In this document: positions 1,254-46,376 of the stretch, in pieces
Numbering within the stretch: the first letter of the stretch is position 1
Layout of the letters: each line of letters opens with the position of its first letter
DNA from: Ostreococcus lucimarinus
Lineage: Eukaryota
NCBI GenBank assembly: GCA_000092065.1
Contig: CP000596.1
DNA: 64,000 bases
Direction: 5' to 3' (one strand)
Program-made: the position numbers and the translations under genes
The notes under the pieces: model-generated
Told to the model about the DNA's origin: nothing
The model's input: the letters and a program-made list of their open reading frames with translations, nothing else
The model's database searches: none

Positions 1254-4200
1254 TCAGATGACGGAGCTGTAGCCGTCGACTTGGCGTGACGTCGTCGCGA
1301 CGAGCGACGTACGTTCGGACATTTCGGCGTCGGCTGGACGCGCGCGCGCGCGGAACGCGAACGCGAACAGCGCGACGCACAGCGTGAACGCGAAGGGAGT
1401 GTAAAAAATTGCGACCTTTTGACTGCCGTCGATGTCATCTTGAGGGCTCGATGATGCGAGAGATGATTTTTGTCGTGGAGAAGATCCCGACGACCCTAGT
1501 TGTGGCGTTTCGGCGGTGCTCGCGCCGACGCGCACAGGTGCGACGAATTCAAACTCAGCCGCTGGGTTGCCTGCGACGTCGGTCACTTCCGTAACAGTCA
1601 CTTTGTGATAGCCTTGTGAAAAGTATGGAAACTTCATCAACCAGTGACCACCAGCGCCATCGTTAACGCATTGAAGGACGTACTGTCTCAAGTCTTCGTT
1701 GGAAACGGCTTCGAAGGGACCCGTCGACGAGTTGCCTCGCTTGGCCGTGATCACTTGCTTCGTGCAATCAATGTCTTCCATGAAATCGACGCGTTGCGTT
1801 ACCTGTGAGCTCACATATTTGAAATCACCGACGAGCGGGTCCTTCGTATCTATCTTCACCATGAGATTTTGATCGCTCACAAATTCGTGCACTGACGGCT
1901 TTGCGAGGTGAGATCCGCCCACGCACATTGTTTTCAATCGGATATCATATTTCCCATCTTTATATCCACTCAGAAGTTTGTTGTAAGGGTCGTTTAGATC
2001 CCAGTCAAAGATGCAACCGTCTCCACCCCGCGACTCCGGGCAAAGTAAATTGAAATTCTTATTCGTGCCGGCACCGCGCTCGGCGTCTTTCGCTGTGATC
2101 CATTCGCCTCCTGATACCGAACGATATTGCACGTAGACGTAGGCGAGATTCCCATTCGTCACCAACGCTTCGGACGTGGATGCAGTTTCCTTGGGCCAGA
2201 GAGAATATCTATTCGGATTTACGACCGAGATGCTCAAAACGCTCGAATCAGACGCTGCGCTCTTCTCAAAGTAACTTGCTTCCTTGCTGAGCGTAGACGA
2301 GTGAAAAGCAACTTGAGGGCAATCTTTACTCCACGACATGGCACCGAGTGTAACACTGCTCGAGATGATCGGGCGATACATGTATTCTTCAATCATCGAC
2401 TCACACAAGCTCACCAAGGAAATCCCCAGGTACGAGCTTTCATACACTCCGTCGCTTGGCTCCACGCTCAGAAGCACGCGACTCTCGCGCACAACGCTTT
2501 GCGAATCCATACGCTCTCCAGCCAATCTTCGTAGAGGTAGGACTTCACCGAATGACCACATTTGAATACCATTGATCGAGAACTTCATTCCCTGTAGGAG
2601 TGTTCCTTGTGCTGTAGTGGTTTGCGTGAGACGAGCGATTGCGTTTGCCAACAATCTCCCTGCTCTGACGCTCATTGACTGTTCGTATGACGCTACGATG
2701 TCTTCAATCCGCGCCTTCAGGTCTTGAATGTCATCAGACTCTGACGCAAAGCATTCGTGGCTATCCGCCATGGCGTATGCTGCATTCTTTACGAACGTTG
2801 CGTTGTCCTCGTTCAACTGTGCCGCGTTATGAGCAGCCGCGATGATTTTTCCAACGCAGTCGGCGACTCCATCTACCAAACGAAGGCCCATGTTGGCCAC
2901 TTCCTTGTAGGGCGACTCATTGCTGATGAGAAGTTGGATCAAAGCGTGCTCTCCTGGGTTCAGATTCGTGTTATGCGTCGACTCCTTACCTATGGTAACG
3001 CCAGCTTCTCGGAACATCGTCCATTTTTCTCCCGGACATTGACTTCTGCCGCCCATCGTGATGAACACTGGAGATCCGAAACGTTTGTCGGAACTGACCT
3101 GGAGCACAAACTTATCCCCAAAATCTGGGTCACCTAATGAGTACATCGTGCTCATGTGTTCATACTTTGCCCAGGCAAAGGCACGACTTTTTGAAACTGA
3201 CTTGCTCATATCCGTGGTAGCACCTACATGCCCCTTGACGATGGCGATTGAACCCGCGAAGGAGTATCCGTTTTCAGCTGAGCCGTCCAGGCTGAGCGTC
3301 CATGCGTAATCTTGACCGTCGACGTTTTCGTTGGAAGAAAATATGTACTCTGTCGAAGCACCACCGCCGCTAAACGATAGTAAAATTGCTTCATCAGCGG
3401 GTCCATTCGAATCTGTGGTGGAGTAGCCGCGGGGACCCATACGCCCTGTAAACGACGCATCGACTCGTTTCGTATCGTTCATGTAAATGGATGCATCCTC
3501 TCCGAGCGTAAGATCGCTAAGATCGCTCGATTGAAGTAGTTGTGACGACACGTCTAGAGCCTGCGTTTTGCATTTTTCTGTGATGCAGGATGAAACCGTG
3601 TTGTTCAGATCTTCACGAGTGGGGCTATTCATCCCCATTGTCGTGACGAGCTCATCCGCTTCTTGAAATTGCTCGAGGAACTTCGGCTTCATCCTTTCAC
3701 TCTTTCGTGACCAGAAAACCTTGCCGACGTCTGGGGTGGCGTCGTTATCGTCGTCGTCACCGCGGAACCCAAGGTTTCCACTCAACAAGTCTGAAAATAA
3801 AGTCCCGGGATTGCTAACGTAGCCACTGATGAGCTGGGACAATCGAGATTCATCCGTCTCATCCGAGAGAATGAAGTCGTTAAGTGTGTCTATAGTACCA
3901 TCCGCGTCGCCCAAGTCCCCTGGAACGCCATGTATGTATGGACTAACTCTGTCGATTCTCTTCCAAGCAAGCTTCAACTCGTCTATTGGGGTAGAAATCG
4001 GACCGCTCGCGTCACTTATGAACGATGTTTCCATTTTCTCGGCTTCCATACCGAACGCGGATTGTTCATCCATAAAAGGAACCATGATGCGCTCCATTGC
4101 GCCGTAGTTTTTACCGTACAACACGGGAGCGCCTTCCGCAGTCGGCTCCATAGGAACCTTGTACACTGTTGGCGAAGCCCACAAAAGTGTGCGTTGCCAC

Positions 4201-7200
4201 ACGTTAATTTTGTCAGCGATGTACTGTGGCCAATTAGGCGCTTCCATTTTAGAATCATCCCCGACGATGAGGCCGCTTTCCACGACGGAAAGCAAATACC
4301 GCAAGTTTGGAATCACTTTCGCTTCAATCGAGTGTACCGTGAATATGTAGGACGTGGGTTTCCTCGGCATCCATGTGATCGCCGTCGATATCCGCAAGCA
4401 CGGTTTATCGTCTTCCCTTAGCGCAAGATCGAGCGTATCGGCTAGCCTGTAGACAAGTTCAACGCCGCCACCTAGAATCGCATCGCCCTGTCGTCCCGGG
4501 ATGGCGACGTCGGTACTTGTCCGTATGACACGATTTATCGTAGCCGTGAGATCCCAACCGACGGCGGAACTCTGAGCGACCGAAAATTCTGGTCCAGACT
4601 CCTCATGGTATGCGTCAAAATCTATCTTAAAGAGAGGCATTCCGAGCTGGAATAAAACCTCCATGCCATACCCAGCGCCGAACCCAGGTTTCGCCTCCAC
4701 TTCGAGTTCTACGCCGCCACCGCCTTCGTGTGAACTCGACACAGACGCCGCTTGTTCGTCTGAAAGCTCCACGGACATGGTCACTTCCGTGCCCATAAGA
4801 AGTTCGGCGTAAGAGTTGCCACCGGGCGGATCATGTACCGTCATGTACACCAAACCTTCGAGTGGAACAGTTGCCCAATACACGTCATCGCTTTCTTCGC
4901 CGTAGATCCCTTCGCCTCGCGGTTTCGAGCCAAGAGAGATGAGCTCTCGTTTCAACGGAACTGTCACTGTCATCGAACCATCAAATCTACCCACAGTCAG
5001 TTCGACAGATCTGCGGTAATTTCCTGAGAGCTTAGGATCTCCCGCGACAATGAGTCGATCCGTCGTCTTCTCGCCCTCATCCGTGGGGAATAAAAGTTTG
5101 TCGCTCTCCGGATCGATCTCAACGTCAAAGTCGCACAATGGTCCTCCATTGCGATCGGTATGACATGGATTTTCGGCTATATCGGTGACGCTTTGTCTGA
5201 ACATGGCCACCGTCATCCCGCCGCTCTCGGCGCTAGGCAGTGTCAAGCATTCATCGAGTGAACCATTCTCCACATGCAGTTCAAGTACTTTGGCGCTCAC
5301 AAGTTTCGGCCCCAAAGCGTAGAGCCCTTCTCCACCGAAATCATCAAAAAATGGCGATATCCCAACAAAGTGGTTGTGTCTAATGCCACCAGCTTTCACG
5401 CCATCAACGTCCCAGCAGTAATCGCCATCGTCGGTGATTACAGAAAGATCTACGAACTCTGCGCACAAATAACCGTGGTACTTGTATCTCGCCGAATACC
5501 AAGTGTGCTCAGTGCGTAATGGTACAAGCCTTTCGATCGTTGTTGGATGCTGGCGGAAGTATGGAATGATGCCGTCTACTCCGACATGACACAACGCGTT
5601 CGGATATTTCTCCTCGCGCATCGCCGTGAAATTCGCTGTGGATGGGGCCTCTTCGATCACTACCGAGTAATCCATCGCGGCGAGTGGCCACCGTCTTCCA
5701 TTCGGAACTTCTTGATATGTTGGTATAACGTCTGAGTTTTCCTTGTCGCGGTCAGGTAGAGTCCAGCCGGATACTTGAGCCGAAGTGAAGATGGCTGGTG
5801 GGTGACAGCCATTGATGGGGGTAATTTTGAAAGTCGCCCCTGTGTAAAGCTTTTCACACTCACCTTGATAGACACCCAAATCGACGTTTGCCGTCGTCGT
5901 GTCTGAGAAGAAAATGTACTTTTTCGATGATACGGCGTGGAGAGTAACTGTGGTCGGTTTACCGTCGCAGCTCCAAATTCTCGTAGCTTCCACGATGGTG
6001 GTTCCCGAATAGCAGATTTCGTGACCGGGATATTCCGCGGTTATCGTGTAGGTTTTCCCGTTTGTGACTGCGAATTCGAACCAGCCAGTCTCGTCTGTAG
6101 TGAATTGTCGCGGCGCACCAGCCTCGCTTTCATCTTTGACATAAATGCTTGCCTCAAAAAGTCCACACTCGGACAACTCGGTCCATTCTATTGGGAACAT
6201 GACGGCACCCAAAATGACCACTGTCGTATCGTCCTGCATTTTCTGCTCTACCTGATGATTATGGGTCAGCTCCAGGTTGATGACATCAATATCAGCCGTA
6301 TCCGAAAATACGGTATCACTTTCATATAGGTCACCATCGTCATCCGAAGTTCCAGCTTGCTTGACGACGTCATTGTTGTTGAATACATGCACGATTTCTG
6401 GCAGCTGCTGCGTGCTCCACAGCGCGACATCCAATCCAGGACGAGTGACGCGCGCGAACAGCGTCTGCGGATCATCTTGAACCACGTCGTGCAGTAGTGC
6501 GGCATCTAAGTCAACGAAAATCTTATTCGAGCCGGGAGATGTAGCAAGTAACGGTGTTGCATACACGGAGGTCTCATCGCCGACGACAATGGCATCGAAC
6601 TCGGCGTCTTCGAGAGGGCGACAGTGATCGATTTTTGACACAACATCACCCCCACTCTCTGCGCTGAGCTCATCATACCACTCGTTCCATCCCTCGGAAG
6701 AGTACGGAACGTGGGCTGATGTCGATCTTCGAACGATGAAATTTTCGCACGCTTTGCCAAACACTTGGCTACGCGCATCCTGGTGAGACTCGTCGGCGAT
6801 CGCAGCGCTAACACTCTGCACGGTGAACAAATCGAAGTCGTATGTAATTTTCCGCGGAGGGAATACGAGCACTGGCTCGACAAACAATGTCCGTTGAGCC
6901 AGACGATGCGCCACACTGAGGAATTCTTGTGCGTTCAGAAGTCCATCACCGTCCATATCCAACGACGAATTCCAAAGTTCTTCTGAAATTATCGCGTACC
7001 CATTGCTTGGAAAACTCGCACCTTTCTCGATGATGGCGGTCAACTCTGACTTATCGATGCCCCCGCTTCCATCTGTGTCTGTCTCGTCAAAATCGTGCAT
7101 CGGTGGTGGAGGCGATGGCGGTGGTGGCGATGGCGGCGGCGGCGATGGCGGCGGCGGCGATGGCGGCGGCGGCGACGGCGGCGGTGGCGACGGTGGCGGC

Positions 7201-10200
7201 GGCGGCGATGGCGGCGGCGGCGACGGCGGCGGCGGTGACGGTGGCGGCGACGGCGGCGGCGGCGATGGCGGCGGTGGTGATGCGATGCGCTCGACCCAGT
7301 GAACGTTTGTGAGAGAACCGGCCTTGACAGAGATATCCGCATGCAGCGGGTACTCGGGAGTCTGTTGACTGGTGTAAAAGCGAATTTCATTCTTGAAGTA
7401 CTCCACGGCTCCGGCGTCGTTGATGACGATTTGCAGCGAGTCGGACGAAGAGTAAGTCCCAGCCATCGTATACTCACGCTTGCCTTTCTCGTACACCTTG
7501 ATCTGTTTGGTATGCGTACAAAAAATCGCAAAATCAAGACTTTGATAATTCGTCGAATCCGTCGTCGACTGAGAGTTCAAACCGATCATCCTGTTGTTGT
7601 ATCCTCCGGCACAGACTGCGGAGATGCCACGCACAGAGTCAGAACCATTTCGAATAGCGCGCTGACTCACCGCACCGGCGTCCCAAGCGCCAGTCACTGC
7701 AGCCGTGCGCGTGACTTGGCCGCTTTCTGTGGATTCGACGCCGACTTGCGATACCCACGCGACATGATCGTCCGCCACCGCCTTTCCTGGCGGCGGCGGC
7801 GGCGGTGACGGTGGCGGCGGCGACGGCGGCGGCGGTGACGGTGGCGGCGGCGACGGCGGCGGCGGCGGCGACGGCGGTGGTGACGCGATGCGCTCGACCC
7901 AGTGAACGTTTGTGAGAGAACCGGCCTTGACAGAGATATCCGCATGCAGCGGGTACTCGGGAGTCTGTTGACTGGTGTAAAAGCGAATTTTATTCTTGAA
8001 GTACTCCACGGCTCCGGCGTCGTTGATGACGATTTGCAGCGAGTCGGACGAAGAGTAAGTCCCAGCCATCGTATACTTACGCTTGCCTTTCTCGTACACC
8101 TTGATCCGTTTGGTATACGTACAAAAAATCGCAAAATCAAGACTTTGATAATTCGTCGAATCCGTCGTCGACTGAGAGTTCAAACCGATCATCCTGTTGT
8201 TGTATCCTCCGGCACAGACTGCGGAGATGCCACGCACAGAGTCAGAACCATTTCGAATAGCGCGCTGACTCACCGCACCGGCGTCCCAAGCGCCAGTCAC
8301 TGCAGCCGTGCGCGTGACTTGGCCACTTTCTGTGGATTCGACGCCGACTTGCGATACCCACGCGACGCTACCAAGTATCTCGCCCGCCACCGCCTTTCCT
8401 GGCGGCGGCGGCGGCGGCGACGGCGACGGCGGCGGCGGTGACGGTGGCGGCGACGGCGGCGGCGGCGATGGCGGTGGTGGTGACGCCATGCGCTCGACCC
8501 ATTTAACATCGCTGAAGGAACCACGCATAATAAAAGCAACATCCGCGTGCAGCGGGTACTCGGGAGTCTGTTGACTGGTGTAAAAGCGAATTTCATTCTT
8601 GAAGTACTCCACGGCTCCGGCGTCGTTGATGACGACTTGCAGTGTATCGCTGTCCGTATACGCCACTGCAGCACCCTTAATTTTTTTACCACCTTCGTAC
8701 ACTTCAACTGCATCGGAGTGAAAATTGCATCTGATGCTGAAGTCCATTCGACTGGACACGGTCTCTGCCGCGGACTGCCGATTCAAGCCGATGAACTTGA
8801 GGCCGGACTCAGACCCACAACGAGCCGAGATTCCGCGCACTGAGTCCGTCAGGCCGTGGATCGACCGACGACTCACCGCACCGGCTGCGGAAAAATAATT
8901 CCACCAATTTGGAGATCGCCGCCAAACTTTTCGATTCGACGCTTTGGCTCTGCGAAGCGTCACCCAGACCACGTTGCCAACCGCCGCTTTTTCAGGCGGC
9001 GGCGGCGGCGGTGGCGACGGCGGCGGTGGCGACGGCGGCGGTGGTATGTACTGCGCAATGTTCCCCAGGAGGCGGCGCCCCCAGCGCTGCCTACCCAAGA
9101 GTGACGTCGTGGTTTCAGGAGATGACGAATCATCTTCCTTTAAGACCAATAAGACTTTACTGGGTACGTTCAGCGGGTCTGTCACGTCCGACGTTTGCAA
9201 GATGGGCTGCGTCGTCTTTTCAAAAACTTCCACTTTGTACGCCCCGATGTCAACGTGAGTTTTGATTGGCGTCATACCCGTGGAGTCTGTGATATGAACA
9301 ACAAACGATCCTTCCGAATCAGTGACCGCGCTGAAAGGGCATCGCGTCTCACCACCCAATACTCTTATTTCAGTCAAATTGACGTCTCGAACCGCCACGA
9401 CTGATACAAACTGCCCGTGCATCGCCTGCACAGTGTCGCCCCCGCCCCCCCCGCATGTAAACGTCAAACAGTCTGCGAATTCATCACTGACATCAGACGG
9501 ATCGTGGTTACATGCATATCCATAATTAGTCGTGTCTTCGGGATCGATTTCATGCACGTGCACTTTCATCGGTAAACTAAGCGTCGGACTCGCCTGTTGC
9601 CGAAATTCAAATCCCGTTACTTCAACTTTGCTCGATTCCGCACCAAACGAAATCTCGGGGAAAGTTATGTATTGATCTTGAGATGATATGAGGGTGGCGT
9701 TGAAACGTCTCCACGATTCCTCATGTATGGTGAATGATTCCGTACTGGCGTCAGTGGCGGATGTTCCGCGCAAGTCGATTGACACCGCGCGTTCACCACC
9801 CAAAGACTTCGCCCAAAACGACACCACGACAGAATCTCCAGTCAGGGCGCGCAAAGACTCGCCAGGAACGTGCACCGTGACTGAAACGCCTGCGTCCACC
9901 GATTTTACAACGTCCTCGAAACCAGGTGGAGGCGCAGTTGGGCTCGCGGTTAAAGGACTGATGGCGCTTGTCTGAACAAGCTCGAGGCGTTCGGTGAGAG
10001 TATTAAGAGTGAAATGAGCTCCGGTGAAGTAGAACGTACTTTCCGACCAAGCTGATACAGTAAATCCGACGAAAGCGGCGTCCTCTAACGTGTGCTTAAG
10101 CCTTATTTTCCTCCATTTATTCGGTTCAGCTGTAATGACGAGCGCGTCACCAACGGTCTGACGGCCTGCTGCTGTAGTTTGTTGTTCATACCCTAAAATC

Positions 10201-13162
10201 TGGAAAGTCATAATCGCCTCCTTCCCGACGGCGCGTACCCAGCATTCCAACAACACTGTATCACCAGCTTCGGCGTCTAGTCGATCAGTATTTTTCGCCC
10301 AGAGTTTCTCGTCTGCTCGCACGAGTCGGATGACATCATTCTCGTAACGAGGTGGATCAACGATCACGTCTGGATCATCGCCTGTATCGCCAGAATACCC
10401 CAGTCGGTCGGTGAGAGAACCCTCGGCAAGTTGGCGTGCCTTGATCGATTGCGGCTGTAGACATACTTGAACACTGCCTATTGACATCCAAAGACCAAGA
10501 TCGACGCGCGCGTAGCCACCCGTCGATACGACGACAGATTCACCGGTAGGTATGTGATTCCCATCGGTGAGCGTGTACGCTTGTTCATTCAAAGGGTTTG
10601 AGTATGCGTGCTTGAAAAGTGCGACATTGCTGGAAGATGATTCGACGTCGTCGCTCGGCCGTAAAGTTATCGTCGAATTCTCATTTTCATCCGCGTCTGG
10701 AGGCCTGGACCCTCGGTAATTTGCGACCTCCCCATCTATTACGATCGGGTCGTGAAAATTAGCGCATATTCGGACGTCGGGTACTGGAACAGCGGAATCA
10801 CCGGCGTACACGTAACCACCTACCTCTCCGTGCCAGGGCGTGATGAATTTGAAAGGGACAGAGTTTATACTTCCACCGGATGATGTTTTCGTCACCACCT
10901 TATACTTCCAAATCTGTCCTGGGATTGCCGCCGCCTCTCTGTCGGCGAAAAGCAACGGCGCGTACGATCGATGACAGTACGTGAGGCCACTGTCAATCAT
11001 CACCACTGACTCATAAGGTGCATCCGTCAGAGAATCCTGCATGCTTTGACGAAGAATCTCGAACCCAACGTCATTCCAGGCGGTATCACGGAAGCTGAAA
11101 GTGACTCCTACTGGATCCAGTTTTCCGTTGACGTCAATAGTAGAACCATCGTAGTACAATCCACCTCCACATTCAAACTTTGAGTAAGTTTCCTCGCGAG
11201 CGTCCGAAATGACGCCACTTAAACACACAATTCTTCGAGCTTTTGGTGCGGATGATTGACGAAGCACGCAGCGCTTGTAATGTCCACATCTTACGGTATC
11301 AATGAACATCACTTCGCGTATCACTCCGGTATACACTCGAACGTCGTCGAATTCAAAATCCACCGCGCCAAGCAGTGTAACGTCCGTCATTGACTCGAGC
11401 GCGCTCAGCGGCCAAGTTTCATCGCGCGTGTAAGTCGTATCATCGATTACTGTGGCCTTTGCGTCACTCGTTGGATCTACGTACAATGTCATGAAATTCA
11501 CCGAGTTTACGGCGAACGCGATGAGGTGCCACTCCCCGTCGCACGCAAAATCAAGTTTCACATCCTTTGAGGATGTGAAAGCGCTCGGAGGATCCACAGA
11601 CTCCTTGACCTGATGAGATGCCCGCAGTTCGACCATGCCGTCGCTCGTACGTATCTTGAGGTATACGTGGAGTCTGTGATCGTGAAGTCCCAACTGTCCT
11701 TGAAACTGAGCGACCGTCATGAGTGATTCGTCGTTGGAGGATTTGGGTTGCGAGCAACGACTTGGATCGATGCGCACCCATGTGCTCATCGCGATGTCGT
11801 GCCCAAGCGTATCTTCTTTATCAAGAGAGTATGAATAATCGTTCGTCCCAGGATCATCCACTGCTTGAAGGCAGCGAAATCCGTTGCCCCCCGAACATCC
11901 CGATATTGTGCGAGCGGATTTCGGCTGCAATCTCATCGGGACGGAAGACTGTCCGTCGACGATTGGCGCGACCGAATCAAGCGATCCGTCGTGTAAAGGG
12001 TCTTCATCAAACGTAAATGCTGCCACGAGAGAAGCGTGTTCGTCGAGAAAGTCACTCGTTGCTGGGCGAATGTCCGTGAAGGAGATGGGAAGTTGAAGCG
12101 TCGTGCCGCCGACTTCATACTCTTCAAAGCGCACATCGACGACGTCGTCGACTGTACCGTCGGCAACGTTGATCTGATTGAAGAGTATACCATCCACGTA
12201 TGCGCAGACGTAATCGCCGTTCGTTGGCTTAGGACTGTACGACCATGCAGTGGTGAGCCCGTTGAGGCCACTCACACAGCGATTCTCCGTTTGCCAGTCG
12301 AGAGTCGGATAGGTGATGCTATCGATACTGAAACTGTTCGACGGAGCTCCGCTGCACTTGACGGGTCGAACGGGGATTTCCATCACGTCGACAATAGACA
12401 CTGCCAGATCTGTGTCGTGCGCGGCGCGAAATTGGTCATTCCAAACGTTGAGAATGTACCTCGAAACGCTTTGTTCCACCAACATGGCCTGAAGTTCATT
12501 CAGTCGCAGCAGTCCGTCGCTGGGATCGACGTCGTGCCTACGAAAGATGCTTTCCTTTGTCTTGTAAATTTCGCCATCATCGCACAGCACGTTGTTGAAT
12601 TGATCGTTACTCAGCAATATGTACCGGACCAGTTCTTCAAGCCCCGAATTCTGATTCGCGCTCGCTTGGCCGGCGGCGTTGAATCCGAGAGGCAGGTGCA
12701 AATCGCAACCCTTGATAACTTCGAAAGAGTGTTGACCAACGGTTTCCGAACCTGGAACGATGCCATCGACCGTAACAAAGTGACAGTTATAAGTTATGGT
12801 GTGAGATCCAACCGAGTGCGTCCCATCCAACTCTGTGAGCGCGAGCGCCTTCGGGAAAAAATCATTCCATTTGCGACACGGTAAGTTATCCGCGTAATCC
12901 GACTCGGAACACGACTGATCGTCTCGTTTCACGCGAACATCGCATCGGAGACCAAGCGCGTGATTGCTCACGCTCTCTTCATTCACATTCAGTAAACAAT
13001 CGCTCGCTTCAGCGCACGCGGGATGATGCACCGCGACTTGGAAATCGTACGAGTACGCCGCAACCCTCTCCGTGGTGGAACCAAATCTCACTTCAATCGC
13101 AGCACCGGCACCAGGCGGCGGCGGTGGACTCGGCGGCGGCGGGCTCGGCGGCGGGCTCGGCG

Positions 13163-13202
<40 letters not shown>

Positions 13203-13569
13203 CGGACTCGGCGGCGGCGGCGGGCTCGGCGGCGGCGAACAATTCGCTATACCCTCGCAATTCTCCGTTCGTGTTTGTCCCTCATACGCTCCACAACTTC
13301 GTCCACCGTTTCGCGGCTTGACGGTGATCGTGAACGTCTGCGAGTACGTCGCCGGTCCGCAAAAAGCCGTGCAACTCCCTTGCCAAAAGCCTACACAATC
13401 CGTTTTCGGCGGCGACGGCGACGACCCCCCGTGGACCCCTCGCAGCGACGACAGCGCGCTCGCGACGACCAACCCGCGCATCATCGTTCGCGTCGCGTCC
13501 CATCGACGTCCGGCGCCATCGCGCGTCGTCGACCGCGACGGCGCGCGTCGTTCGCGAAGCTGACGCGGC

Positions 13570-13571
<2 letters not shown>
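1254..13571 (-). CDS. Giant (about 4,080-4,105 aa) single-exon cell-surface protein with a C-terminal TM anchor. N to C: signal peptide, TSP1-like Cys motif, extensin-like (S)PPPP spacers, LamG/concanavalin-like region, three tandem ~190-aa repeats, EF-hand/dockerin-like Ca-binding pair, ~2,500-aa C-terminal ectodomain. Function unknown.
   Basis: The ORF is uninterrupted for 12,318 nt on the minus strand. The probable true start is the ATG ATG at 13479-13484, giving MMRGLVVASALSSLRGVHG, which looks like a signal peptide. The TSP1-like motif is CVGFWQGSCTAFCGP...RNGGRSCGAYEG...NCEG. SPPPPSPPPP runs are encoded by GGCGGCGGCGGCGAY tracts. The LamG-like signature is FACDGEWHLIAFAVNSVNFMTLYVDPT. 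The Ca-binding loops are DTDGSGGIDKSE and DMDGDGLLNAQE. The C-terminal TM helix is VAIFYTPFAFTLCVALFAFAF, followed by a short tail. Confidence 0.8.
7040..9060 (-). repeat. In-frame tandem array of a roughly 600-bp unit (two near-identical 603-bp copies plus one or two diverged copies) inside the giant gene. Each unit encodes a ~160-aa domain plus a PPPS spacer.
   Basis: The string cgctcgacccagtgaacgtttgtgagagaaccggccttgacagagatatccgcatgcagcgggtactcgggagtctg occurs at 7291 and again at 7894, a period of 603 bp (201 codons). A diverged copy begins at 8494. The duplicated spurious ORFs in the track (MILRFFVRIPN..., MNVCERTGLD...) reflect the same repeat. Confidence 0.85.
13113..13240 (-). repeat. 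Coding G-rich 12-15-nt periodic microsatellite (GGCGGCGGCGGGCTC-like) encoding the (S)PPPP extensin-like spacer. Similar tracts lie at about 7100-7290, 7790-7890, 8395-8490 and 8990-9045.
   Basis: The periodicity is visible directly in the sequence. Read on the minus strand it gives SPPPPSPPPPPSPPPP. Confidence 0.7.
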
Positions 13572-13602
<31 letters not shown>

Positions 13603-13770
13603 GTCGTCCGTCCTCGCGCGCGGCCCTCGCGCGGGCGCCGCGTCGTCGCGCGTCGGGGGTTTCGGTTCGCTCCGCGTTCGTCGCGCTCGCGTCGCGCGAT
13701 GCCGTCGCGCGCGCGACGAACGCGCGCCGCGACGTTTGGGGGAGGTGTTGCGTCTTTTCAAAAAAAAACG

Positions 13771-13803
13771 AGGGTGTTACAAGGGTGTTACGAGGGTGTT
13801 GCG
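13771..13803. promoter_or_regulatory. Three tandem 11-bp repeats, AGGGTGTT(A/G)C(A/G), about 200-300 bp upstream of the giant-gene start. A degenerate fourth copy lies at 13743-13752, next to an A9 run.
   Basis: The sequence reads agggtgttac a agggtgttac g agggtgttgc. The 11-bp period is about one helical turn. It sits in the 5' flank of the minus-strand giant gene. Confidence 0.35.
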
Positions 13804-14218
13804 CGCGGGGCGTTACAAAATAAACGTCTAGGCTAGTTGGAGGACGCGAGGTCGAACGGATTGTTTTCTTCGGGATTCAATCGAATTCTTCGGAATTCTT
13901 GGAGATGCGAGCTCCGCAGCGGACCTCGCGCCCTACGCCTTCGCCCGATTTCGGCGAACGAACGAACGATCGCTCGCCTTCCGGCGGCGGCGCCGACAGC
14001 CCCTCGGGACTGGCGACCACCCACCTGGGAGGAGGGAAATCCCTGACCGCGATGCGCACCATCTCGAATGCGCGCACTCGGGATGATCCACGGACCCGCG
14101 CGCGCGCATCCGAACGATGCGGTAGGGAGTTTCTTTCGACCGACGCTTTTTTTTGTTTGACTTCCGTCGCCCCCGAAGGCGCGTCGACCGCTTCCATCGT
14201 AAAATTCGCGCGCGTCCG

Positions 14219-14764: not shown

Positions 14765-14919
14765 CCTCGGCGACGACGCGCGGCGTCGCCCGCGACGCGC
14801 GCGCGCGGTCCCGGTCGCGCCTCGCGACGCGACGCGGCGATGAGTGTGGACGATTCCTCACATCACAGCGCGCGACGTCGACCGCGTCGACGCTCGGACC
14901 CTCGCGAGACCTTCTCTTT

Positions 14920-14941
14920 ATGGCCGACGACTTAGTGTTCG
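14920..14941 (+). CDS. SUI1: eIF1/SUI1 exon 1 (22-nt micro-exon encoding MADDLVF plus the first base of the next codon). The intron spans 14942-15363 (422 nt; GTGCGT donor, GAGACTGACGAG branch site at 15323-15334, CAG acceptor).
   Basis: The SUI1 homology region (…NDPFANEA…YIHIRVQQRNGRK) has no in-frame Met before an upstream stop at 15297. The only GTGCGT in the 5' flank follows ATG GCC GAC GAC TTA GTG TTC G. Splicing to CC AAC GAT... gives MADDLVFANDPFANEA..., which matches the eIF1 N-terminus (MSDLD..AFDPFADA). Confidence 0.55.
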
Positions 14942-15363
14942 GTGCGTCGACGCCACGCGCGCGGCGCGTCGCGATCGCGTCGCGGCGCGCGCGCGGCGAC
15001 GCGATCGCGACGCGCGATCGCGACCTCGAATCGCGAACGATTCTTTCGGCGTCGCGCGGTTCGCGGCGCGCGCGCGCGCGAAGGGCGCGCGCGCGCGCGC
15101 GATGGACGCGCGATCGTCGCGCGCGACGGCGAGCGGCGCGAGCGGGGACGACGCGACGCGCGCGGGACGGGAAAACGGGACGATGGAGGGATCGCGCGGC
15201 GCGAGGGCGCGCGAGACGACGAGGCGCGCGGGAAGCGCGCGGATCTCGGACGAGACGCGCGAGGGATGACGAGGGATGACGAGGGATGGGGCGCGATGAC
15301 GACGACGACGACGACGCGAACGAGAGACTGACGAGAGGCGCGCGACGAATCCGCGAGACGCAG

Positions 15364-15713
15364 CCAACGATCCCTTTGCTAACGAAGCGCTTGACTTTGG
15401 AGACGAAGAAAAGCCAAAAAAGGAAAAGAAGGAAACCGCGGACTCGGTTCAGGAGAACTACATTCACATTCGCGTGCAACAGCGTAACGGACGTAAGAGC
15501 TTGACGACGGTGCAAGGACTCAACCCGAAGATCAACAAGAAATTGGTGCTCAAGGATCTCAAGAAGAAGTTCAACTGCAACGGATGCATCGTTGAGGATC
15601 CCGATCACGGAGACATCGTTCAGCTTCAAGGAGACCAGCGTAAGCAAATCGCGACGTTCCTTCTCGAGGCGAAGATTTCTAAAAAGGCGTTGATCAAGGT
15701 GCACGGGAGTTAA
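15364..15713 (+). CDS. SUI1: eIF1/SUI1 translation initiation factor, exon 2
   Basis: The protein reads YIHIRVQQRNGRKSLTTVQGLNPKINKKLVLKDLKKKFNCNGCIVEDPDHGDIVQLQGDQRKQIATFLLEAKISKKALIKVHGS, ending at TAA 15711-15713. Confidence 0.85.
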
Positions 15714-16035
15714 AATCTCACGCGCGTGATTTCACGACGGACGCGACGAGACGTCCAAAATTTTACTTACACGTTACACGACGCAAACGCGCGACTGGGA
15801 GACGGCGACCGCCGAAAGACAGACACGTTGAGGGGGGGTAGATTTTTTACCCGCGGCGCTCGCGCCGCCGGTGTACTTCTTGTAGCTTTCTCTTAGCGTT
15901 GTCAGATACGAAATGATACGAATTGCGTGACTTTCGTTTACCAGCCAAACTTCGTCAAGGGCGCGCTCTCGCGAGACGTCGAGTTTAAAAGTTCAATCTC
16001 ACACTACACACACCGCTCGTTCGATTCGTTCGCCG

Positions 16036-16827
16036 CTATTCTTCCTCATCCGGCGACGCGGCCTCGTCTTCGGTCGCCGCCTCCGCCGCGTCGTCGCCGC
16101 GTCGTTTCGTCCCCCACGAGCGCGCCTTTTCGTTCCTCGCCTTCGCCGCGGCCCTGCGCTCGTTCGCGCCCCCCCCGACCGGCCCGCTCACGACGACGTT
16201 CTTATAATTCTCCCCGCTCGACGTCATTTTCAGAATTTTAAATCCGCACAGCTCTCCGACCACGGGCGCGTCCACCTTCCCCCCCCCCGCCGCCGCTCGC
16301 TCCGCCGTCGTCGGCGGCGCTCGACCTCGATACGCTCTCGCCGGCAAAAACGCAATCATTCCCGCGATCCCCACCGCGTACCCCCCGTTCACCGCGTTCA
16401 ATATCCTCCCTTTCACCGTCGCACCCGCGTCGCGCGCTCGCACGAGCTCCCTCCACACCCGCTCCAGCGACCGCCGTCTCGCCAGCCCCTTCACCTCCAG
16501 GTCGAGCGCGCCCGCGGGATTATTCATCCACGTCACCCTCGCCTCCACGACGTCCCCGACCCGCGGCGTCGCGTCCAGCTCGCTCAACTTGTACGTCACC
16601 GCGCCCCGGATCCCCGTCAGCGCGCTCGCGACGCCGTTCCGCGCGTCGACGGCGACTATTCTCGTCGCGATGACTTTGCCCTGCACGCACGGCATCAGCG
16701 CGTTGTGCGCCGCGTCGTCGCGCGTCGGCGTCGAGTGCGGCGCCGTGGCGTCGCGCGTCGTCGTCGTCGTCGTCGCCGCGCCGCGCCGTCCCGCGAGACG
16801 CGCGAGCGCGACGCCGCGTCGAATCAT
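16036..16827 (-). CDS. Small S1-type RNA-binding-domain protein with a probable organellar transit peptide (MIRRGVALARLAGRRGAATTTTT...)
   Basis: S1-like segments are GKVIATRIVAVDARNGVASALTGIRGAVTYKLSEL...VGDVVEARV and ATVKGRILNAVNGGYAVGIAGMIAFLPARAY, followed by an acidic/basic tail. The start is a real ATG at 16825-16827. An alternative internal start lies at 16693-16695. The rest of the 627-aa track ORF upstream is Arg-rich and was rejected. Confidence 0.5.
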   Translation of the reverse strand: MIRRGVALARLAGRRGAATTTTTTRDATAPHSTPTRDDAAHNALMPCVQGKVIATRIVAVDARNGVASALTGIRGAVTYKLSELDATPRVGDVVEARVTWMNNPAGALDLEVKGLARRRSLERVWRELVRARDAGATVKGRILNAVNGGYAVGIAGMIAFLPARAYRGRAPPTTAERAAAGGGKVDAPVVGELCGFKILKMTSSGENYKNVVVSGPVGGGANERRAAAKARNEKARSWGTKRRGDDAAEAATEDEAASPDEEE

Positions 16828-16905
16828 CGTCGCGACGATCGGGACGCGCGTCGATCTGCGGCGCCGCACACGCGCGCGCGGGAGACGCGCGGCGCGGCGA
16901 CGACG

Positions 16906-18279
16906 ATGCGCGCGGCGACGCGCGCGACCGCGGCGCGCGTCGCCGCGACGCGCGCGCGCGCGCGACGCGCGAGGGCGACGACGATTCGCGACGACGATTC
17001 GACGCGGCGTCGTCGCCGCGCGTCTCGCGCCGAGGCGCGGCGCGGCGACGACGACGACGGCGCGAGCGGCGCGAGGGAGACGGCGCCCCGCGCGTCGGCG
17101 CAGGCGCGGGCGTCGGCGATGGACGCGGTGTGGGCGCGCGCGCACCCGAAGTACCTGCAGTCGGACGCGCTCGACGACGCGTTTTGCGACGAGATCGAGC
17201 GCGCGGACGACGTCGCGCGACGGCGGGACGCGGCGAAGATCGGGGCGTCGTCGCGGGAGGGCGGCGCGGGCGCGGCGGGCGACGAGGGGGCGGACGAGGC
17301 GGTGGATTACATTTGGACGGCGATTCGAGAGGAGGCGAGGCGAGACGCGGCGAGGGAGCCGATGCTGTCGAGCTCCCTGTACGCGAGCGTGCTCAGTCAC
17401 GACACGCTGGAGCAGAGCTTGAGCTTCGTGTTGGCGAATAAGTTGGCGGACAGCACGCTGCTGCCGACGCAGCTGATGGAGATTTTTAACACGGTGCTGA
17501 CGGAGGAGGAGGAGACGGCGGCGGGCGCGGAGCTGCGCGAGGCGGTGAGGGCGGACGTCGCGGCGTTCAAGGAACGAGATCCGGCGTGCGTGGGGTACTC
17601 GCACGCGTTGTTGTTGTTCAAGGGGTTTCACGCGCTGGAGTCGCATCGCATTCAGCACGCGCTGTGGAACCGCGGGCAGAGACTCATGGCGTTGGCGATG
17701 CAGAGTCGAATCTCCGCCGTGTTCTCGATGGACATTCATCCGGCGGCGCGGTTGGGGAAAGGGATCTTGATCGATCACGGCACGGGTGTGGTGATCGGTG
17801 AGACGTGCGTGATCGGAGACTCGGTGAGCATCTTGCAAGGCGTCACTCTGGGGGGCACCGGGAAGGCGGTCGGCGACCGTCATCCCAAAATCGAGTCGCA
17901 CGTCTTGATCGGCGCGCACAGCACCGTGCTCGGGAACATCAAAGTCGAGCGCGGATCGATGATCAGTGCGGGGAGCTTAGTGTTGAAGCCCGTCGCGGCG
18001 CACACCATGGTCGCTGGCTCGCCCGCGAAGGTCGTGGGTAAGGTTCGCGACAGCAAACCGTCGCTCGTCATGGACCATCACATCACGCCCATGGCGCCGA
18101 CGTTTTGCGACGACTTGGAAGAGGCGGTGCGTCGACAAGTGAGCGAGGAGAAAGAGAAGTGGACTCGCACGGCCGAAGATGAGGATCGAGTGCGCTCGCA
18201 AGTGATTTCCGCGGACGAGAAGAGGCGGCGAAGACGCGATCGAGGCAGTAGAAGCGGCGGCGATTCGTCGACGCGATGA
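16906..18279 (+). CDS. Serine O-acetyltransferase (SAT/SERAT; left-handed beta-helix hexapeptide acyltransferase) with an R/A/T-rich presequence and a roughly 110-aa C-terminal extension
   Basis: The core reads IHPAARLGKGILIDHGTGVVIGETCVIGDSVSILQGVTLGGTGKAVGDRHPKIESHVLIGAHSTVLGNIKVERGSMISAGSLVLKPV. The in-frame ATG at 16906 gives MRAATRATAARVAA..., and an alternative start (MDAVWARAHPKY) lies at 17119. The track ORF nominally begins at 16705 with GTG, which would overlap the divergent S1 gene. Confidence 0.8.
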   Translation: MRAATRATAARVAATRARARRARATTIRDDDSTRRRRRASRAEARRGDDDDGASGARETAPRASAQARASAMDAVWARAHPKYLQSDALDDAFCDEIERADDVARRRDAAKIGASSREGGAGAAGDEGADEAVDYIWTAIREEARRDAAREPMLSSSLYASVLSHDTLEQSLSFVLANKLADSTLLPTQLMEIFNTVLTEEEETAAGAELREAVRADVAAFKERDPACVGYSHALLLFKGFHALESHRIQHALWNRGQRLMALAMQSRISAVFSMDIHPAARLGKGILIDHGTGVVIGETCVIGDSVSILQGVTLGGTGKAVGDRHPKIESHVLIGAHSTVLGNIKVERGSMISAGSLVLKPVAAHTMVAGSPAKVVGKVRDSKPSLVMDHHITPMAPTFCDDLEEAVRRQVSEEKEKWTRTAEDEDRVRSQVISADEKRRRRRDRGSRSGGDSSTR

Positions 18280-18358
18280 TCGAGTTGTAACAAATGAACA
18301 GTAAATGAATTCACAGCTGCGTTCGCGCACGCCAATCGGACCGACTAAAGAATGTGTG

Positions 18359-19315
18359 TTAATCGAACGGGTCGATGCGAGGATCGTGCTCGGTCGCGAG
18401 CGCCATCCCGGTGCACAAGCACGACGTGCACATAACCTTCGCCGTGCCGCTGCACGTCGGACAAATACATCTCGTGTTCGACGTCGGATCGATCAATCGC
18501 CCCGGGCGGTTGCTCGTCGAGCACTCCGCGCACTGTAAGTACCCACTCCCCTTGCAATACATGCAAATCTTCTTGCGCTGCTCTTTGACGTTTTGAATTT
18601 CGATGACGAAGAAGGCGGAAATCGCCCCCACGGCGCCGCCCGTGAACGAAGCCACGATCGGATCAACCTGCGCGAGCTGCGCGGGCAAGTGCACGCTATC
18701 TATGAACTCCGCGTACGACGTCCCGCCGAGCCCGAGTTTCACTTCCGCCATGGGTGCGATCAACCCTCCGAAGAGGAGCAAAAATCCCACCGCCGCGCCC
18801 CAATAAATCCGATAATCCTTCACGCTATCCTCCGTCAACACCGGGAATCCCGGGATCACGGACTCGAACTCCCGCGTCTCCTTCACCTCATCGTCGTCCA
18901 ACCCGATCGTCTTCACGCGCTGCTGCACCCGCAACCGTCGCAACTCCTCCATCAACAAAAACAATCGCTGTCGGCGACTCTCGATGTTCTGCGCGATCTC
19001 CCCCGCCTGCATGTCCGCGAAATCCACCACACTGTTCCGCCCCTCGATGATGCAATAATTCTCCGGCAACGCTTGCGAATCAAAATCTCGCGCCTCGCCC
19101 TCCGCGTCGTCCTCCTCCGCGTCGTCGTTCGCCGCCGTCGTCGCCGCGCCCTCGCCTTCGCCCTCGCCGATCGCTCTGCGCGTCCCTCCCGCGCGCGTTC
19201 GCGCCCATTCCGCGCGCGCCGTCCGCGACGCTTTCGCGCGCATCCGCACTCGCGCGTTCACCGCCCCCGTTCGCGCGCGCATCGCGCATCGCGTCGTCGG
19301 CGTCGTCGCGCGCAT
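18359..19315 (-). CDS. OR: ORANGE (OR) protein: plastid DnaJ-like Cys-rich zinc-finger membrane protein, the phytoene-synthase holdase
   Basis: Near-identity to plant OR over the conserved core: CIIEGR..VDFA.M...I..NI.SRR...FLLMEE.RRLR.QQR; GLGGTSYAEFI; QVDPIVASFTGGAVGAISA; CMYCKGSGYLQC; KVMCTSCLCTGMALATEHDPRIDPFD. There are two TM helices and CxxCxGxG motifs. Confidence 0.9.
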   Translation of the reverse strand: MRATTPTTRCAMRARTGAVNARVRMRAKASRTARAEWARTRAGGTRRAIGEGEGEGAATTAANDDAEEDDAEGEARDFDSQALPENYCIIEGRNSVVDFADMQAGEIAQNIESRRQRLFLLMEELRRLRVQQRVKTIGLDDDEVKETREFESVIPGFPVLTEDSVKDYRIYWGAAVGFLLLFGGLIAPMAEVKLGLGGTSYAEFIDSVHLPAQLAQVDPIVASFTGGAVGAISAFFVIEIQNVKEQRKKICMYCKGSGYLQCAECSTSNRPGRLIDPTSNTRCICPTCSGTAKVMCTSCLCTGMALATEHDPRIDPFD

Positions 19316-19517
19316 GGCGCGACGCTTTTCGCCCTTTCGCGTCTTCTCGACGCCGTCGACGCGTCGTCGGGCCGCCGTTCGGCGTCGCGAGGCGGTCGGT
19401 CGGCGCGCGCGCTCGCGCGCTCGCGCTCGCGCGTCGCCGCGCGCGTCGGCGTCGGCTCGAGGCGCGCTGTGCGGCGTCGACGCGCGCGCGGGTTATCCGG
19501 AGCGGCCGTCGCCGCTG

Positions 19518-19533
19518 AACCCTAGCTAGGGTT
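19518..19533. promoter_or_regulatory. Perfect 16-bp palindrome AACCCTAGCTAGGGTT (telo-box-like AACCCTA core on both strands) in the OR/QS bidirectional promoter
   Basis: Read directly from the sequence; it is self-complementary. It contains TAGGGTTTAG, which is about 1.4 units of the plant telomere repeat TTTAGGG. It lies within the 384-bp spacer between divergent start codons 19315 and 19700. Confidence 0.4.
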
Positions 19534-19699
19534 TAGACGTATCCATCGCCGACGCCGTCGCCGCGACACGGCGACGCGCGCCGACCGCCCGACGCGCGCG
19601 CGCGACGCCGACGCGCGCGCGACGCTCGCGCCGACCGCCCGCGCGCGCCGACGCGCGCCGACGCGCCGACGCGCCGACGCGACGACGCGAAACGTCGCG

Positions 19700-33782: not shown

Positions 33783-33945
33783 CGCGACGCGCGCGCGCCG
33801 TCTCGCGTCGCCGCGCGCGCGCCGCGGCGCGCGACGCGCCGGCGAGCGACGCGCGACGTCGCGGAGCGTCGACGGCGGCGCGCGCGGCGCGGCGCCGAGC
33901 GTCATCGCGCGCGCGGCCGGCCGAGACGCGTCAGAGTGACGCGCG

Positions 33946-41703: not shown

Positions 41704-41720
41704 CGCGTCGCCCGCGTCGC

Positions 41721-41755
<35 letters not shown>

Positions 41756-42048
41756 CGGTTCGACGTGCGCGCGAACGTCGCTTTGTATCGCCAAAAATAA
41801 CCGTCGACGCCTCGACGCGCGCGACGCGCGCCGCCTCGACGCGCGCGCGAACGCGCGACGGTTCCCTCGACCGCGCCGAAAACAGGCGCGCGCGCGACGC
41901 GCGCGCGACGGGCCGCGTCCGCGCGCGCGCCGACGCCCGGCGCGTCGTCCGTCTCGACGTCGAAAACGCGCGCGCCGCGCACCGTCGCGGACCGTCGCGC
42001 GTTAAAACGCGCGCGCTCGAAACGCGCGCCGCGCGCGCGCGATGAACG

Positions 42049-45755: not shown

Positions 45756-46376
45756 CGTTCGAACACCGTTACTCGAAATGTTTGATTGATGAAGGCGCGA
45801 TTCGTCGCGCGAGGACGCGAAATGCGGCGCCGAGGCGCGCGCGCGACGCGCGCGACGGCGTCGTTCGCGCGCGTCGTCGCGCGCGGCGCGCGGCGCGCGG
45901 CGCGCGGCGGTGTGAGGAAATGGAGCGTCGACTCGCGCTCACGCGAGGCACGGGACGGCGGCGGCGGCGGCGAAGAGGAGCGACGCGCGCTCGCTCGCGG
46001 CGATGGCGGCGCACGCGCTCGAGCCCGACGCCGACGTGGTGCCGACGGCGCACGCGGCGCACGCGCTCGAGCCCGCGTTCGCGGCGAACGTGCCCGACGG
46101 ACAGAAATCACACGCGCCGGCGACGCGTCCGCGCGCGCGCGCCCGGGATCGATCGCTCACTGTTACTCATACCCGAATGTCCGAAATCGTCGTCGTATTT
46201 ATGCGCGACGCGCACCGTACTCGAGCGCTCTGAAAGGCCATCAGTAAAGCGTCGCGAGACGTCGCGTCCGACCGCCTCCCGCGCGCGCGTCGCACACCGC
46301 GACGCGCGCGCGCGACGCGACGGACGACGCGGAAGACGACACGGAAGACGGACGACGGACGCTCGAACCGCGAGCG

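What the first reader, a model, noticed from the sequence alone, without database searches (positions are those of the whole stretch)
7040..9060. In-frame 603-bp tandem repeat array (VNTR-like) inside the giant gene
Two copies are nearly identical at the DNA level (period exactly 603 bp, 201 codons) and are flanked by diverged copies. Near-identity implies recent duplication or concerted evolution. Copy number is likely strain-variable, which would change the length of the surface protein, a classic antigenic or host-virus interface feature. Short-read assemblies may have collapsed the array.
Basis: seen in the sequence. Interest (0 to 1): 0.6.

Follow-up and report, generated by a model that had tools for sequence, protein, structure and literature searches.

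The report
Triplicated lectin-like module in giant surface gene
A giant membrane glycoprotein gene of the tiny marine alga Ostreococcus lucimarinus holds three in-frame copies of a ~170-residue SPRY-fold (lectin-like) module on proline-rich stalks. Two copies are kept almost identical by gene conversion, and the module content of this part of the gene differs between wild haplotypes.

Summary
Window 7101-9044 (minus strand), inside a 4105-codon ORF (1254-13571), holds three units of one ~170-aa domain plus an SPPPP linker. R2 (7884-8399) and R3 (7281-7787) lie at a 603-nt lag and differ at 11 of 507 nt. There is only one diverged copy, R1 (8484-8993, 51% aa), not diverged copies on both sides.

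The near-identity reflects concerted evolution of an old duplication. Against a related haplotype, 31 sites are shared by the paralogues within a lineage and 1 by orthologues, yet an R2/R3-specific indel is shared across lineages.

Copy-number variation of the identical pair is not shown. Four contigs resolve three copies. The two-copy contigs look like assembly collapse, and many short-read contigs break at the array.

The slot does vary. A related haplotype replaces R1 with three SUEL lectin domains, another carries an R1 allele only 66% identical, and distant orthologues carry 0 or 1 copies.

A surface binding role is inferred. A virus link is untested.

The parts
1254..13571 (-). Giant uninterrupted ORF (4105 codons plus stop). 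The probable start is Met30 at 13484, giving 4076 aa, which equals JGI O. lucimarinus model 25682, a 'long chimeric extensin'.
   Evidence: ORF and translation; length 4076 and SP3/SP4/SP5/YXY counts of 5/19/9/7 match S1 Table of PMC4769139 exactly; the neighbouring ORF equals XP_001421908.1 of O. lucimarinus CCE9901.
13428..13484 (-). Signal-peptide-like N-terminus (MMRGLVVASALSSLRGVHG).
   Evidence: Read from the translation. Signal peptide 'Yes' for model 25682 in PMC4769139 S1 Table. No signal-peptide predictor was run here.
13113..13238 (-). First SPPPP (extensin-like) linker, 42 aa.
8994..9044 (-). SP4 linker 1 (17 aa), upstream boundary of the array.
8484..8993 (-). R1: the diverged SPRY-fold module (170 aa; 51% aa and 61% nt identity to R2/R3). 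It is the most polymorphic block among haplotypes.
   Evidence: Window against L001 gives dS 0.54 and dN 0.40 here, against dS 0 in the C-terminal quarter (aa 3101-4105).
8541..8642 (-). 102-nt tract in R1 (LQVVINDAGAVEYFKNEIRFYTSQQTPEYPLHAD) that is 97-98% identical to R2/R3. Interpreted as a gene-conversion tract.
   Evidence: The same tract is only 81-82% identical to R2/R3 in haplotype L001, and the R1 sequence 5' of the tract is about 51% identical to R2.
8400..8483 (-). SP4 linker 2 (28 aa).
7884..8399 (-). R2: SPRY-fold module (172 aa), near-identical to R3.
7788..7883 (-). SP4 linker 3 (32 aa).
7281..7787 (-). R3: SPRY-fold module (169 aa). This is the copy whose structure was modelled.
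7101..7280 (-). SP4 linker 4 (60 aa; 15-nt periodic GGCGAYGGCGGCGGC on the + strand). Many short-read contigs break here.
6909..7079 (-). EF-hand pair directly after the array; start of the conserved C-terminal half.
   Evidence: EF-hand_1/5/6/7, just below the curated cut-offs. (orthologues at 35-58% identity). (coordinates).
1353..1415 (-). Single C-terminal transmembrane segment, followed by RARAR and a tail of about 32 aa.
   Evidence: the only 19-residue window with Kyte-Doolittle mean above 1.9.

Best explanation
Shown:
- The repeat is a three-module array in the ectodomain of a giant type I membrane, extensin-like glycoprotein of Ostreococcus lucimarinus.
- Each unit encodes a ~170-aa all-beta module of SPRY/concanavalin-A-like fold plus a Ser-Pro4 linker.
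- R2 and R3 are an old duplication whose bodies are kept nearly identical within a lineage by gene conversion. A shorter conversion tract reaches into R1.

Inferred (origin):
- The array arose by unequal recombination between the linker-coding stretches. These are near-identical 15-nt-periodic GC-rich microsatellites, so any misalignment stays in frame.
- The same linkers probably allow whole modules to be gained, lost or swapped. The slot between the N-terminal region and the EF-hand/C-terminal half holds 0, 1 or 3 SPRY-like modules, two LamG-like modules, or three SUEL lectins plus two SPRY-like modules, depending on the orthologue or haplotype.

Inferred (function):
- The modules are binding domains, probably glycan- or protein-binding.
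- They are held away from the membrane on rigid, probably hydroxyproline-glycosylated, polyproline stalks, giving a multivalent and fast-evolving recognition surface.
For: Anatomy.

Identity of organism and gene.

Fold:
- The AlphaFold2 model has pLDDT 86 and pTM 0.85.

Concerted evolution:
- Site patterns for window R2/R3 against L015 copies a/b are 31 within-lineage shared, 1 orthologous and 0 crossed.
- The 9-nt N-terminal indel (GEILGS against DDH) and the K/E site are shared orthologously.
- L001 R2 and R3 both carry GTTGAA where all other haplotypes carry GTGGAG.
- Paralogue dS is 0.025, against 0.105 for orthologues. The near-identity therefore holds at synonymous sites too.
- The R1 tract is 97-98% identical to R2/R3 in the window but 81% in L001.

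Linkers as repeats.

Variable slot:
- L004 has one copy.
- P0356 has two LamG-like modules and P0400 has none.
- L015-17 have three SUEL lectins (PF02140, E 3e-74) plus two SPRY-like copies.

Fast protein evolution: dN/dS is about 1.0 in R2/R3, against 0.35 in the C-terminal flank.
Against: - No ligand, localisation or expression data exist for this protein; the function is inferred from fold and architecture only.
- SPRY domains are typically intracellular protein-interaction modules, so a lectin role is not implied by the fold.
- The module matches no sequence model.
- L001 and L002 carry 1-nt indels that break the frame, so some single differences may be sequencing errors.
- Metagenome contigs across SP4 linkers longer than the assembler's k-mer could be mis-joined.
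- dN/dS near 1 is also what relaxed constraint would give.
Confidence: 0.7

Rival explanations
1. True VNTR: the number of near-identical units differs between strains (two against three) through recurrent unequal crossing-over, changing the protein's length.
For: - L011, L013 and L003 have exactly one 603-nt unit fewer.
- The L011 hybrid copy shows one clean switch from R2-type to R3-type states, as a crossover would give.
- L003 is an R1/R2 hybrid with its junction in the conserved tract.
- A second O. lucimarinus gene with the same module has 10-19 copies among cluster mates at 90% identity or more.
Against: - A single switch inside a long identical stretch is also what an assembly-graph collapse produces.
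- L012 (at least three copies) and L013 (two copies) are 99.76% identical over 4606 nt and come from sister samples.
- L011 is 99.5% and 98.9% identical to the three-copy reference on the two sides of the missing unit.
- L003 ends in the last linker.
- The window (reference genome), L001, L002 and L012 all resolve three copies.
Confidence: 0.25
2. Recent duplication: R2 and R3 are near-identical simply because the duplication is young, with no gene conversion.
For: Only 11 differences between R2 and R3. R3 orthologues are slightly closer to each other (99.6%) than R2 and R3 are within the window (98.0%) among the closest haplotypes.
Against: - The R2-type and R3-type N-terminal indel is already present in the L015 lineage.
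- Both copies there differ from both window copies at 31 shared sites.
- Shared derived changes occur in both L001 copies.
Confidence: 0.05
3. Assembly artefact: the reference assembly duplicated a single unit.
For: Near-identical tandem units are a known source of assembly error.
Against: - R2 and R3 differ at 11 sites and by a 9-nt indel.
- Three independent contigs show the same order R1-R2-R3 with the same copy-specific markers.
- The ORF stays open through the array.
Confidence: 0.02
4. Spacer role: the modules mainly set the length and stiffness of the ectodomain, with little constraint on their surfaces.
For: dN/dS is about 1 between lineages. Orthologues do without the module or use unrelated ones in the same slot.
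Against: - The family is large and conserved, with 5999 representative proteins and arrays of up to 25 copies.
- The 34-aa C-terminal motif is nearly invariant.
- The alternative occupants of the slot are recognised lectin folds, SUEL and LamG-like.
Confidence: 0.15

Closest known systems
SPRY / B30.2 domains (Pfam PF00622; e.g. SPRYD3, TRIM PRY-SPRY, RanBP9/10)
   Different: - 8-17% sequence identity and no hit to any Pfam model, even at E up to 10.
- Here the module is extracellular, tandemly repeated and joined by SP4 linkers.
- Classical SPRY domains are mostly single intracellular protein-interaction modules (general knowledge).
Concanavalin-A-like lectins and CBMs (CBM66, legume lectins, LamG)
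   Different: No sequence match. No sugar-binding or metal-binding residues have been identified. Binding is untested.
Long chimeric extensins / algal hydroxyproline-rich glycoproteins (Liu et al. 2016, PMC4769139); Chlamydomonas sexual agglutinins and volvocine pherophorins, from my own knowledge
   Same: Very large secreted or surface proteins in which globular modules are separated by Ser-Pro(3-5) rods. This gene is itself listed as O. lucimarinus long chimeric EXT 25682.
   Different: - Ostreococcus is described as having no cell wall (my own knowledge; not checked here).
- This protein has a C-terminal TM anchor.
- The globular modules are SPRY-fold, not pherophorin or agglutinin heads.
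- Hydroxylation and glycosylation were not tested.
Tandem-repeat surface or recognition proteins under concerted evolution (abalone VERL, Candida Als, yeast Flo adhesins), from my own knowledge
   Same: In-frame domain-sized repeats that are homogenised within a lineage, diverge between lineages and evolve fast at the protein level.
   Different: Only three units. Copy-number polymorphism is not demonstrated. The partner is unknown.

Membership tests
SPRY domain (PF00622 / B30.2) | Sequence match to the family model at or above its curated threshold | tested here: not met
   hmmscan of R1, R2 and R3 against Pfam-A at E up to 10 returned no families. A profile against PDB sequences returned no matches.
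SPRY domain (PF00622 / B30.2) | Bent beta-sandwich of two antiparallel sheets, superposable on solved SPRY domains | tested here: met
Concanavalin-A-like lectin/glucanase superfamily | Jelly-roll sandwich similar to lectins and CBMs | tested here: met
Concanavalin-A-like lectin/glucanase superfamily | Carbohydrate binding | not testable with these tools
   Needs glycan arrays or ITC with a recombinant module.
Long chimeric extensin (Liu et al. 2016) | At least two SPPP motifs, more than 2000 aa, non-extensin domains, signal peptide | tested here: met
   SP3/SP4/SP5 counts of 5/19/9 and 4076 aa from Met30, identical to entry 25682 in S1 Table. The signal peptide is taken from that table and from the N-terminal hydrophobic segment.
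Long chimeric extensin (Liu et al. 2016) | Proline hydroxylation and O-arabinosylation/galactosylation of SP4 motifs | not testable with these tools
   Biochemical property.
VNTR / minisatellite-type coding repeat | Head-to-tail in-frame units of high identity | tested here: met
   603-nt lag, 97.8% identity between R2 and R3. R1 is only 61% identical.
VNTR / minisatellite-type coding repeat | Unit number differs between individuals of one species | tested here: inconclusive
   Three copies in the window, L001, L002 and L012. Two in L011, L013 and L003, which are compatible with assembly collapse. The L015-17 haplotype has two SPRY-like copies plus three SUEL lectins.
Concertedly evolving tandem array | Paralogues within a lineage share substitutions absent from their orthologues in another lineage | tested here: met
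   31 concerted, 1 orthologous and 0 crossed sites. Paralogue dS 0.025-0.036 against orthologue dS about 0.105. The orthologous indel marker is retained.

The most novel reading that the evidence does not exclude
The middle of this giant surface glycoprotein may be a recombination-driven 'lectin cassette' site. In-frame SP4-linker microsatellites would act as crossover points that swap, duplicate or delete whole binding modules. Several deeply diverged structural alleles would then be kept in one natural Ostreococcus population by balancing or diversifying selection: R1a-R2-R3, R1b-R2-R3, and three SUEL lectins plus two SPRY-like copies. That pattern is expected of a mating or self-recognition molecule, or of a virus-attachment target.

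The evidence leaves this reading open but does not establish it:
- L001 is 100% identical to the window outside the gene, but has dS 0.54 in R1.
- L001 and L015 are 99.5-100% identical in both gene halves, yet carry different cassettes.
Probability: 0.3. Interest if true: 0.7.

Novelty: new member of a known kind. Interest (0 to 1): 0.5.

Why it matters
Ostreococcus is described as a naked, scale-less cell (my own knowledge), and its surface molecules for mating or for prasinovirus attachment are, as far as I know, not identified. This gene is a concrete candidate. It is a giant membrane-anchored glycoprotein whose exposed binding modules are homogenised within lineages, evolve fast between them, and are exchanged as cassettes between wild haplotypes.

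There are two practical points. The array breaks or collapses short-read assemblies, so population surveys of this locus need long reads. And the module belongs to a large family (about 6000 representative proteins, with arrays of up to 25 copies) that has no Pfam or NCBIfam model.

Tried and rejected
- Tandem Repeats Finder misses the array because its longest period is 500; it reports only the 15-nt linker repeats.
- Exact look-ups of the 4105-aa and 4076-aa products found nothing on record. I therefore could not obtain an NCBI accession, or other contigs encoding the identical protein.
- Pfam, NCBIfam and PDB-sequence searches with the module gave nothing.
- A viral-contig scan with the module profile found no relative. 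The BFVD fold search gave only generic SPRY/ConA-like phage and giant-virus proteins and no prasinovirus hit among the 50 matches listed.
- The afdb50 fold library was unavailable.
- I tried to tell real two-copy alleles from collapse by the pattern of copy-specific sites. The single switch seen fits both.
- I considered protein-level purifying selection as the cause of near-identity and rejected it, because synonymous sites are also nearly identical.
- I considered independent duplications in each lineage and rejected this, because of the shared R2/R3 indel.
- Literature searches found no paper describing this repeat or a function for the gene; they found only the extensin catalogue.
Full report
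**1. Observation**

A self-comparison at a lag of 603 nt shows 97-100% identity for window 7300-7720 against 7903-8323, over a background near 25%. The repeat finder reports a three-copy direct family starting at 7185, 7788 and 8391, with spacing 603 and 603. Tandem Repeats Finder sees only the 15-nt GGCGAYGGCGGCGGC arrays, because its longest period is 500.

The repeat lies inside one uninterrupted ORF on the minus strand, 1254-13571, of 4105 codons. 603 nt is 201 codons, so the repeat is in frame.

In the protein the array is built as follows:

| Element | Size | Window coordinates |
|---|---|---|
| Linker 1 | 17 aa | 8994-9044 |
| R1 | 170 aa | 8484-8993 |
| Linker 2 | 28 aa | 8400-8483 |
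| R2 | 172 aa | 7884-8399 |
| Linker 3 | 32 aa | 7788-7883 |
| R3 | 169 aa | 7281-7787 |
| Linker 4 | 60 aa | 7101-7280 |

- R2 and R3 differ at 11 of 507 aligned nt, which is 97.8% nt and 95.9% aa identity.
- R1 is 61% nt and 51% aa identical to them.
- A domain HMM run on all six frames finds exactly three copies in the 64-kb window.
- So there is one diverged copy on one side, not diverged copies on both sides.

**2. Organism and gene**

Several neighbouring ORFs are exact matches to proteins of Ostreococcus lucimarinus CCE9901. For example, 33946-39177 equals XP_001421908.1, on a 428,333-bp record.

Counted from Met30, the product is 4076 aa with SP3/SP4/SP5/YXY counts of 5/19/9/7. That is exactly the entry [quoted passage not shown] in S1 Table of Liu et al. 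2016 (PMC4769139).

The protein has these features:
- a signal-like N-terminus;
- a weak TSP1-like hit;
- five SP4 linkers;
- an EF-hand pair directly after the array (Pfam scores just below the cut-offs);
- a single C-terminal hydrophobic segment followed by RARAR and a short tail.

I read this as a type I membrane, extensin-like glycoprotein. Hydroxylation, glycosylation and surface location are inferred, not shown.

**3. What the module is**

- R1, R2 and R3 match no Pfam model even at E up to 10, no NCBIfam model and no PDB sequence.
- An AlphaFold2 model of R3, built with an 11-sequence alignment, is confident (pLDDT 86, pTM 0.85) and all-beta.
- Other concanavalin-A-like sandwiches follow, such as CBM66 (14.0) and legume lectins (13.2).
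- A full profile search finds 5999 representative proteins at E up to 1e-3. Many are giants with up to 25 tandem copies, including bacterial proteins and another O. lucimarinus protein.

So the unit is a member of a large, uncatalogued SPRY-fold family that typically occurs in arrays.

**4. Why R2 and R3 are nearly identical**

I collected related loci from metagenomes. Among close haplotypes, all R2 and R3 copies are 97-99.8% identical, both within and between contigs. That comparison alone does not decide the question.

The decisive comparison is with L015-17. These are three contigs from three samples, identical to each other, with flanks about 93-95% identical to the window.
- Their two SPRY-like copies keep the R2-type and R3-type N-termini: GKAVVGKISGQVVWV against GKAVAGDHVAWV, compared with GKAVAGEILGSVAWV against GKAVADDHVAWV in the window. 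They also keep the K/E site.
- At the other variable sites, 31 are shared by the two paralogues within a lineage, 1 by orthologues and 0 crosswise.
- dS between paralogues is 0.025-0.036, against about 0.105 between orthologues. The identity therefore holds at synonymous sites and is not protein-level constraint.
- Both R2 and R3 of L001 carry GTTGAA where every other haplotype carries GTGGAG.
- A 102-nt tract of R1 (8541-8642) is 97-98% identical to R2/R3 in the window but only 81-82% in L001. The R1 sequence 5' of the tract is about 51% identical to R2 in both.

Together these show an old duplication homogenised by repeated gene conversion, with occasional tracts reaching R1.

**5. Copy number**

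- Three copies are resolved in the window, L001, L002 and L012, where the third copy is cut by the contig end.
- L011 and L013 have exactly one unit fewer, with an R2/R3 hybrid copy.
- L003 has an R1/R2 hybrid with its junction in the conserved tract, and then ends in the last linker.
- L013 and L012 are 99.76% identical over 4606 nt and come from sister samples.
- L011 is 99.5% and 98.9% identical to the three-copy reference on the two sides of the missing unit.
- The hybrid copy of L011 switches once from R2 states to R3 states, inside a 208-nt identical stretch. An unequal crossover and an assembly-graph collapse would both produce this.
- Many short-read contigs simply start at the last linker or inside the array: L007-L010, L014 and L018-L021.

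I conclude that the assembly warning is right. Strain-variable copy number of the identical pair is unproven and, on balance, unlikely to explain the two-copy contigs seen here.

Linker lengths do vary by one to six residues between haplotypes.

**6. The slot itself is variable**

Across orthologues of the conserved C-terminal half (35-58% identity), the position between the N-terminal region and the EF-hand holds different content:

| Sequence | Content of the slot |
|---|---|
| Window (O. lucimarinus) | three SPRY-like modules |
| L004 | one SPRY-like module |
| P0400 | none |
| P0356 / P0367 | two LamG-like modules |
| L015-17 | three SUEL lectin domains (PF02140, E 3e-74) in place of R1, plus two SPRY-like modules |

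Within what looks like one species the locus is a mosaic.
- L001 is 100% identical to the window on both sides of the gene and in its C-terminal third.
- It is about 95% identical through the N-terminal two thirds and only 60-75% across R1. dS is 0.54 in R1, against 0 in the C-terminal quarter (aa 3101-4105).
- L001 and L015 are 99.5-100% identical to each other in both halves of the gene, yet carry different cassettes.
- The R2 of L001 starts with the L015-type N-terminus and then switches to window-type sequence.
- Between lineages, R2 and R3 have dN/dS of about 1.0, against 0.35 for the C-terminal flank.

**7. Mechanism**

Shown:
- the anatomy of the array;
- the fold of the module;
- gene conversion between the copies;
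- the variable content of the slot.

Inferred:
- The linker-coding DNA forms long, near-identical direct repeats of 15-nt period. These offer in-frame substrates for unequal recombination, which would explain the original duplication, the conversion tracts and the cassette exchange.
- The SP4 stretches probably form rigid glycosylated rods that present the beta-sandwich modules away from the membrane (general knowledge of extensins).
- The modules probably bind a glycan or protein partner, which would give multivalent recognition.

A role in virus attachment or mating is speculation. No relative of the module was found in viral contigs, and the viral fold matches are generic.

**8. Comparison and novelty**

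- It works like other tandem-repeat surface or recognition proteins that evolve in concert, and like algal chimeric extensins.
- By fold it belongs with SPRY/ConA-like sandwiches, but it fails the sequence test for PF00622.
- The gene was already catalogued as a long chimeric extensin.
- I found no paper describing the repeat, its fold, the conversion or the cassette polymorphism.

I rate it as a new member of a known kind, of moderate interest. The more novel possibility is a selected, recombination-driven lectin-cassette site.

Noticed in passing
window 1254-13571 against 14000-64000: The giant gene has a G+C fraction of 0.51-0.56 (0.60 in the 12001-14000 bin that holds its 5' end), while the neighbouring genes are at 0.56-0.70, mostly above 0.60. 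This is a local low-GC island on an otherwise ordinary chromosome.
   Followed up: no
P0303 = XP_001421376.1 (O. lucimarinus CCE9901, record of 708,927 bp); cluster mates P0305, P0307, P0309, P0311: A second O. lucimarinus protein (2165 aa) carries 13 HMM matches (about 12 modules) of the same SPRY-fold module in an alternating two-subtype pattern. Metagenome proteins in the same 90%-identity cluster show 10 to 19 matches, so that gene may be the real copy-number-variable array. Some of these are partial gene calls.
   Followed up: partly
L015/L016/L017 2249-3420 (equivalent to the R1 position, window about 8484-9044): In a related haplotype seen identically in three samples, R1 is replaced by three SUEL-type (galactose/rhamnose-binding) lectin domains between SP-rich linkers.
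   Followed up: partly
window 13400-5000 against L001; window 16000-13540 and 4300-1: L001 is 100% identical to the window outside the gene and in its 3' third. It is about 95% identical in the 5' two thirds and 60-75% in R1. L001 and L015 share one allele class, and the window, L002 and L013 share another. This looks like old alleles recombining within one population.
   Followed up: partly
window 13270-14200 (upstream intergenic region and start of the gene): This stretch is only 59-88% identical in L002 and L003, with many indels, although the adjacent coding sequence is mostly 97-100% identical. The promoter or 5' region is hypervariable.
   Followed up: no
window about 3200-3850: In L013 and L021 this block of the C-terminal half drops to 81-91% identity, while the preceding few kb are about 96-97% identical. 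It is a second divergent block in the same gene.
   Followed up: no
P0136/P0297 (6469 aa, 25 copies), P0152 (TNF25669.1, Deltaproteobacteria MAG, 6283 aa), P0014/L006: The module family has about 6000 representative proteins, including bacterial giants and single-domain secreted bacterial proteins. It has no Pfam or NCBIfam model.
   Followed up: partly
L001 about 9450-9490 and about 10400-10500; L002 about 10000-10040 and 10620-10640: Both three-copy metagenome contigs carry 1-nt indels that break the giant ORF inside or next to the array. These are probably sequencing or assembly errors at homopolymers, but pseudogenisation was not excluded.
   Followed up: no
window 14900-20000, 33700-34100, 41400-42300, 45800-45900: There are many short CG-rich tandem repeats (CGCGCGA, CGACG and similar) throughout the window. 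None was examined.
   Followed up: no
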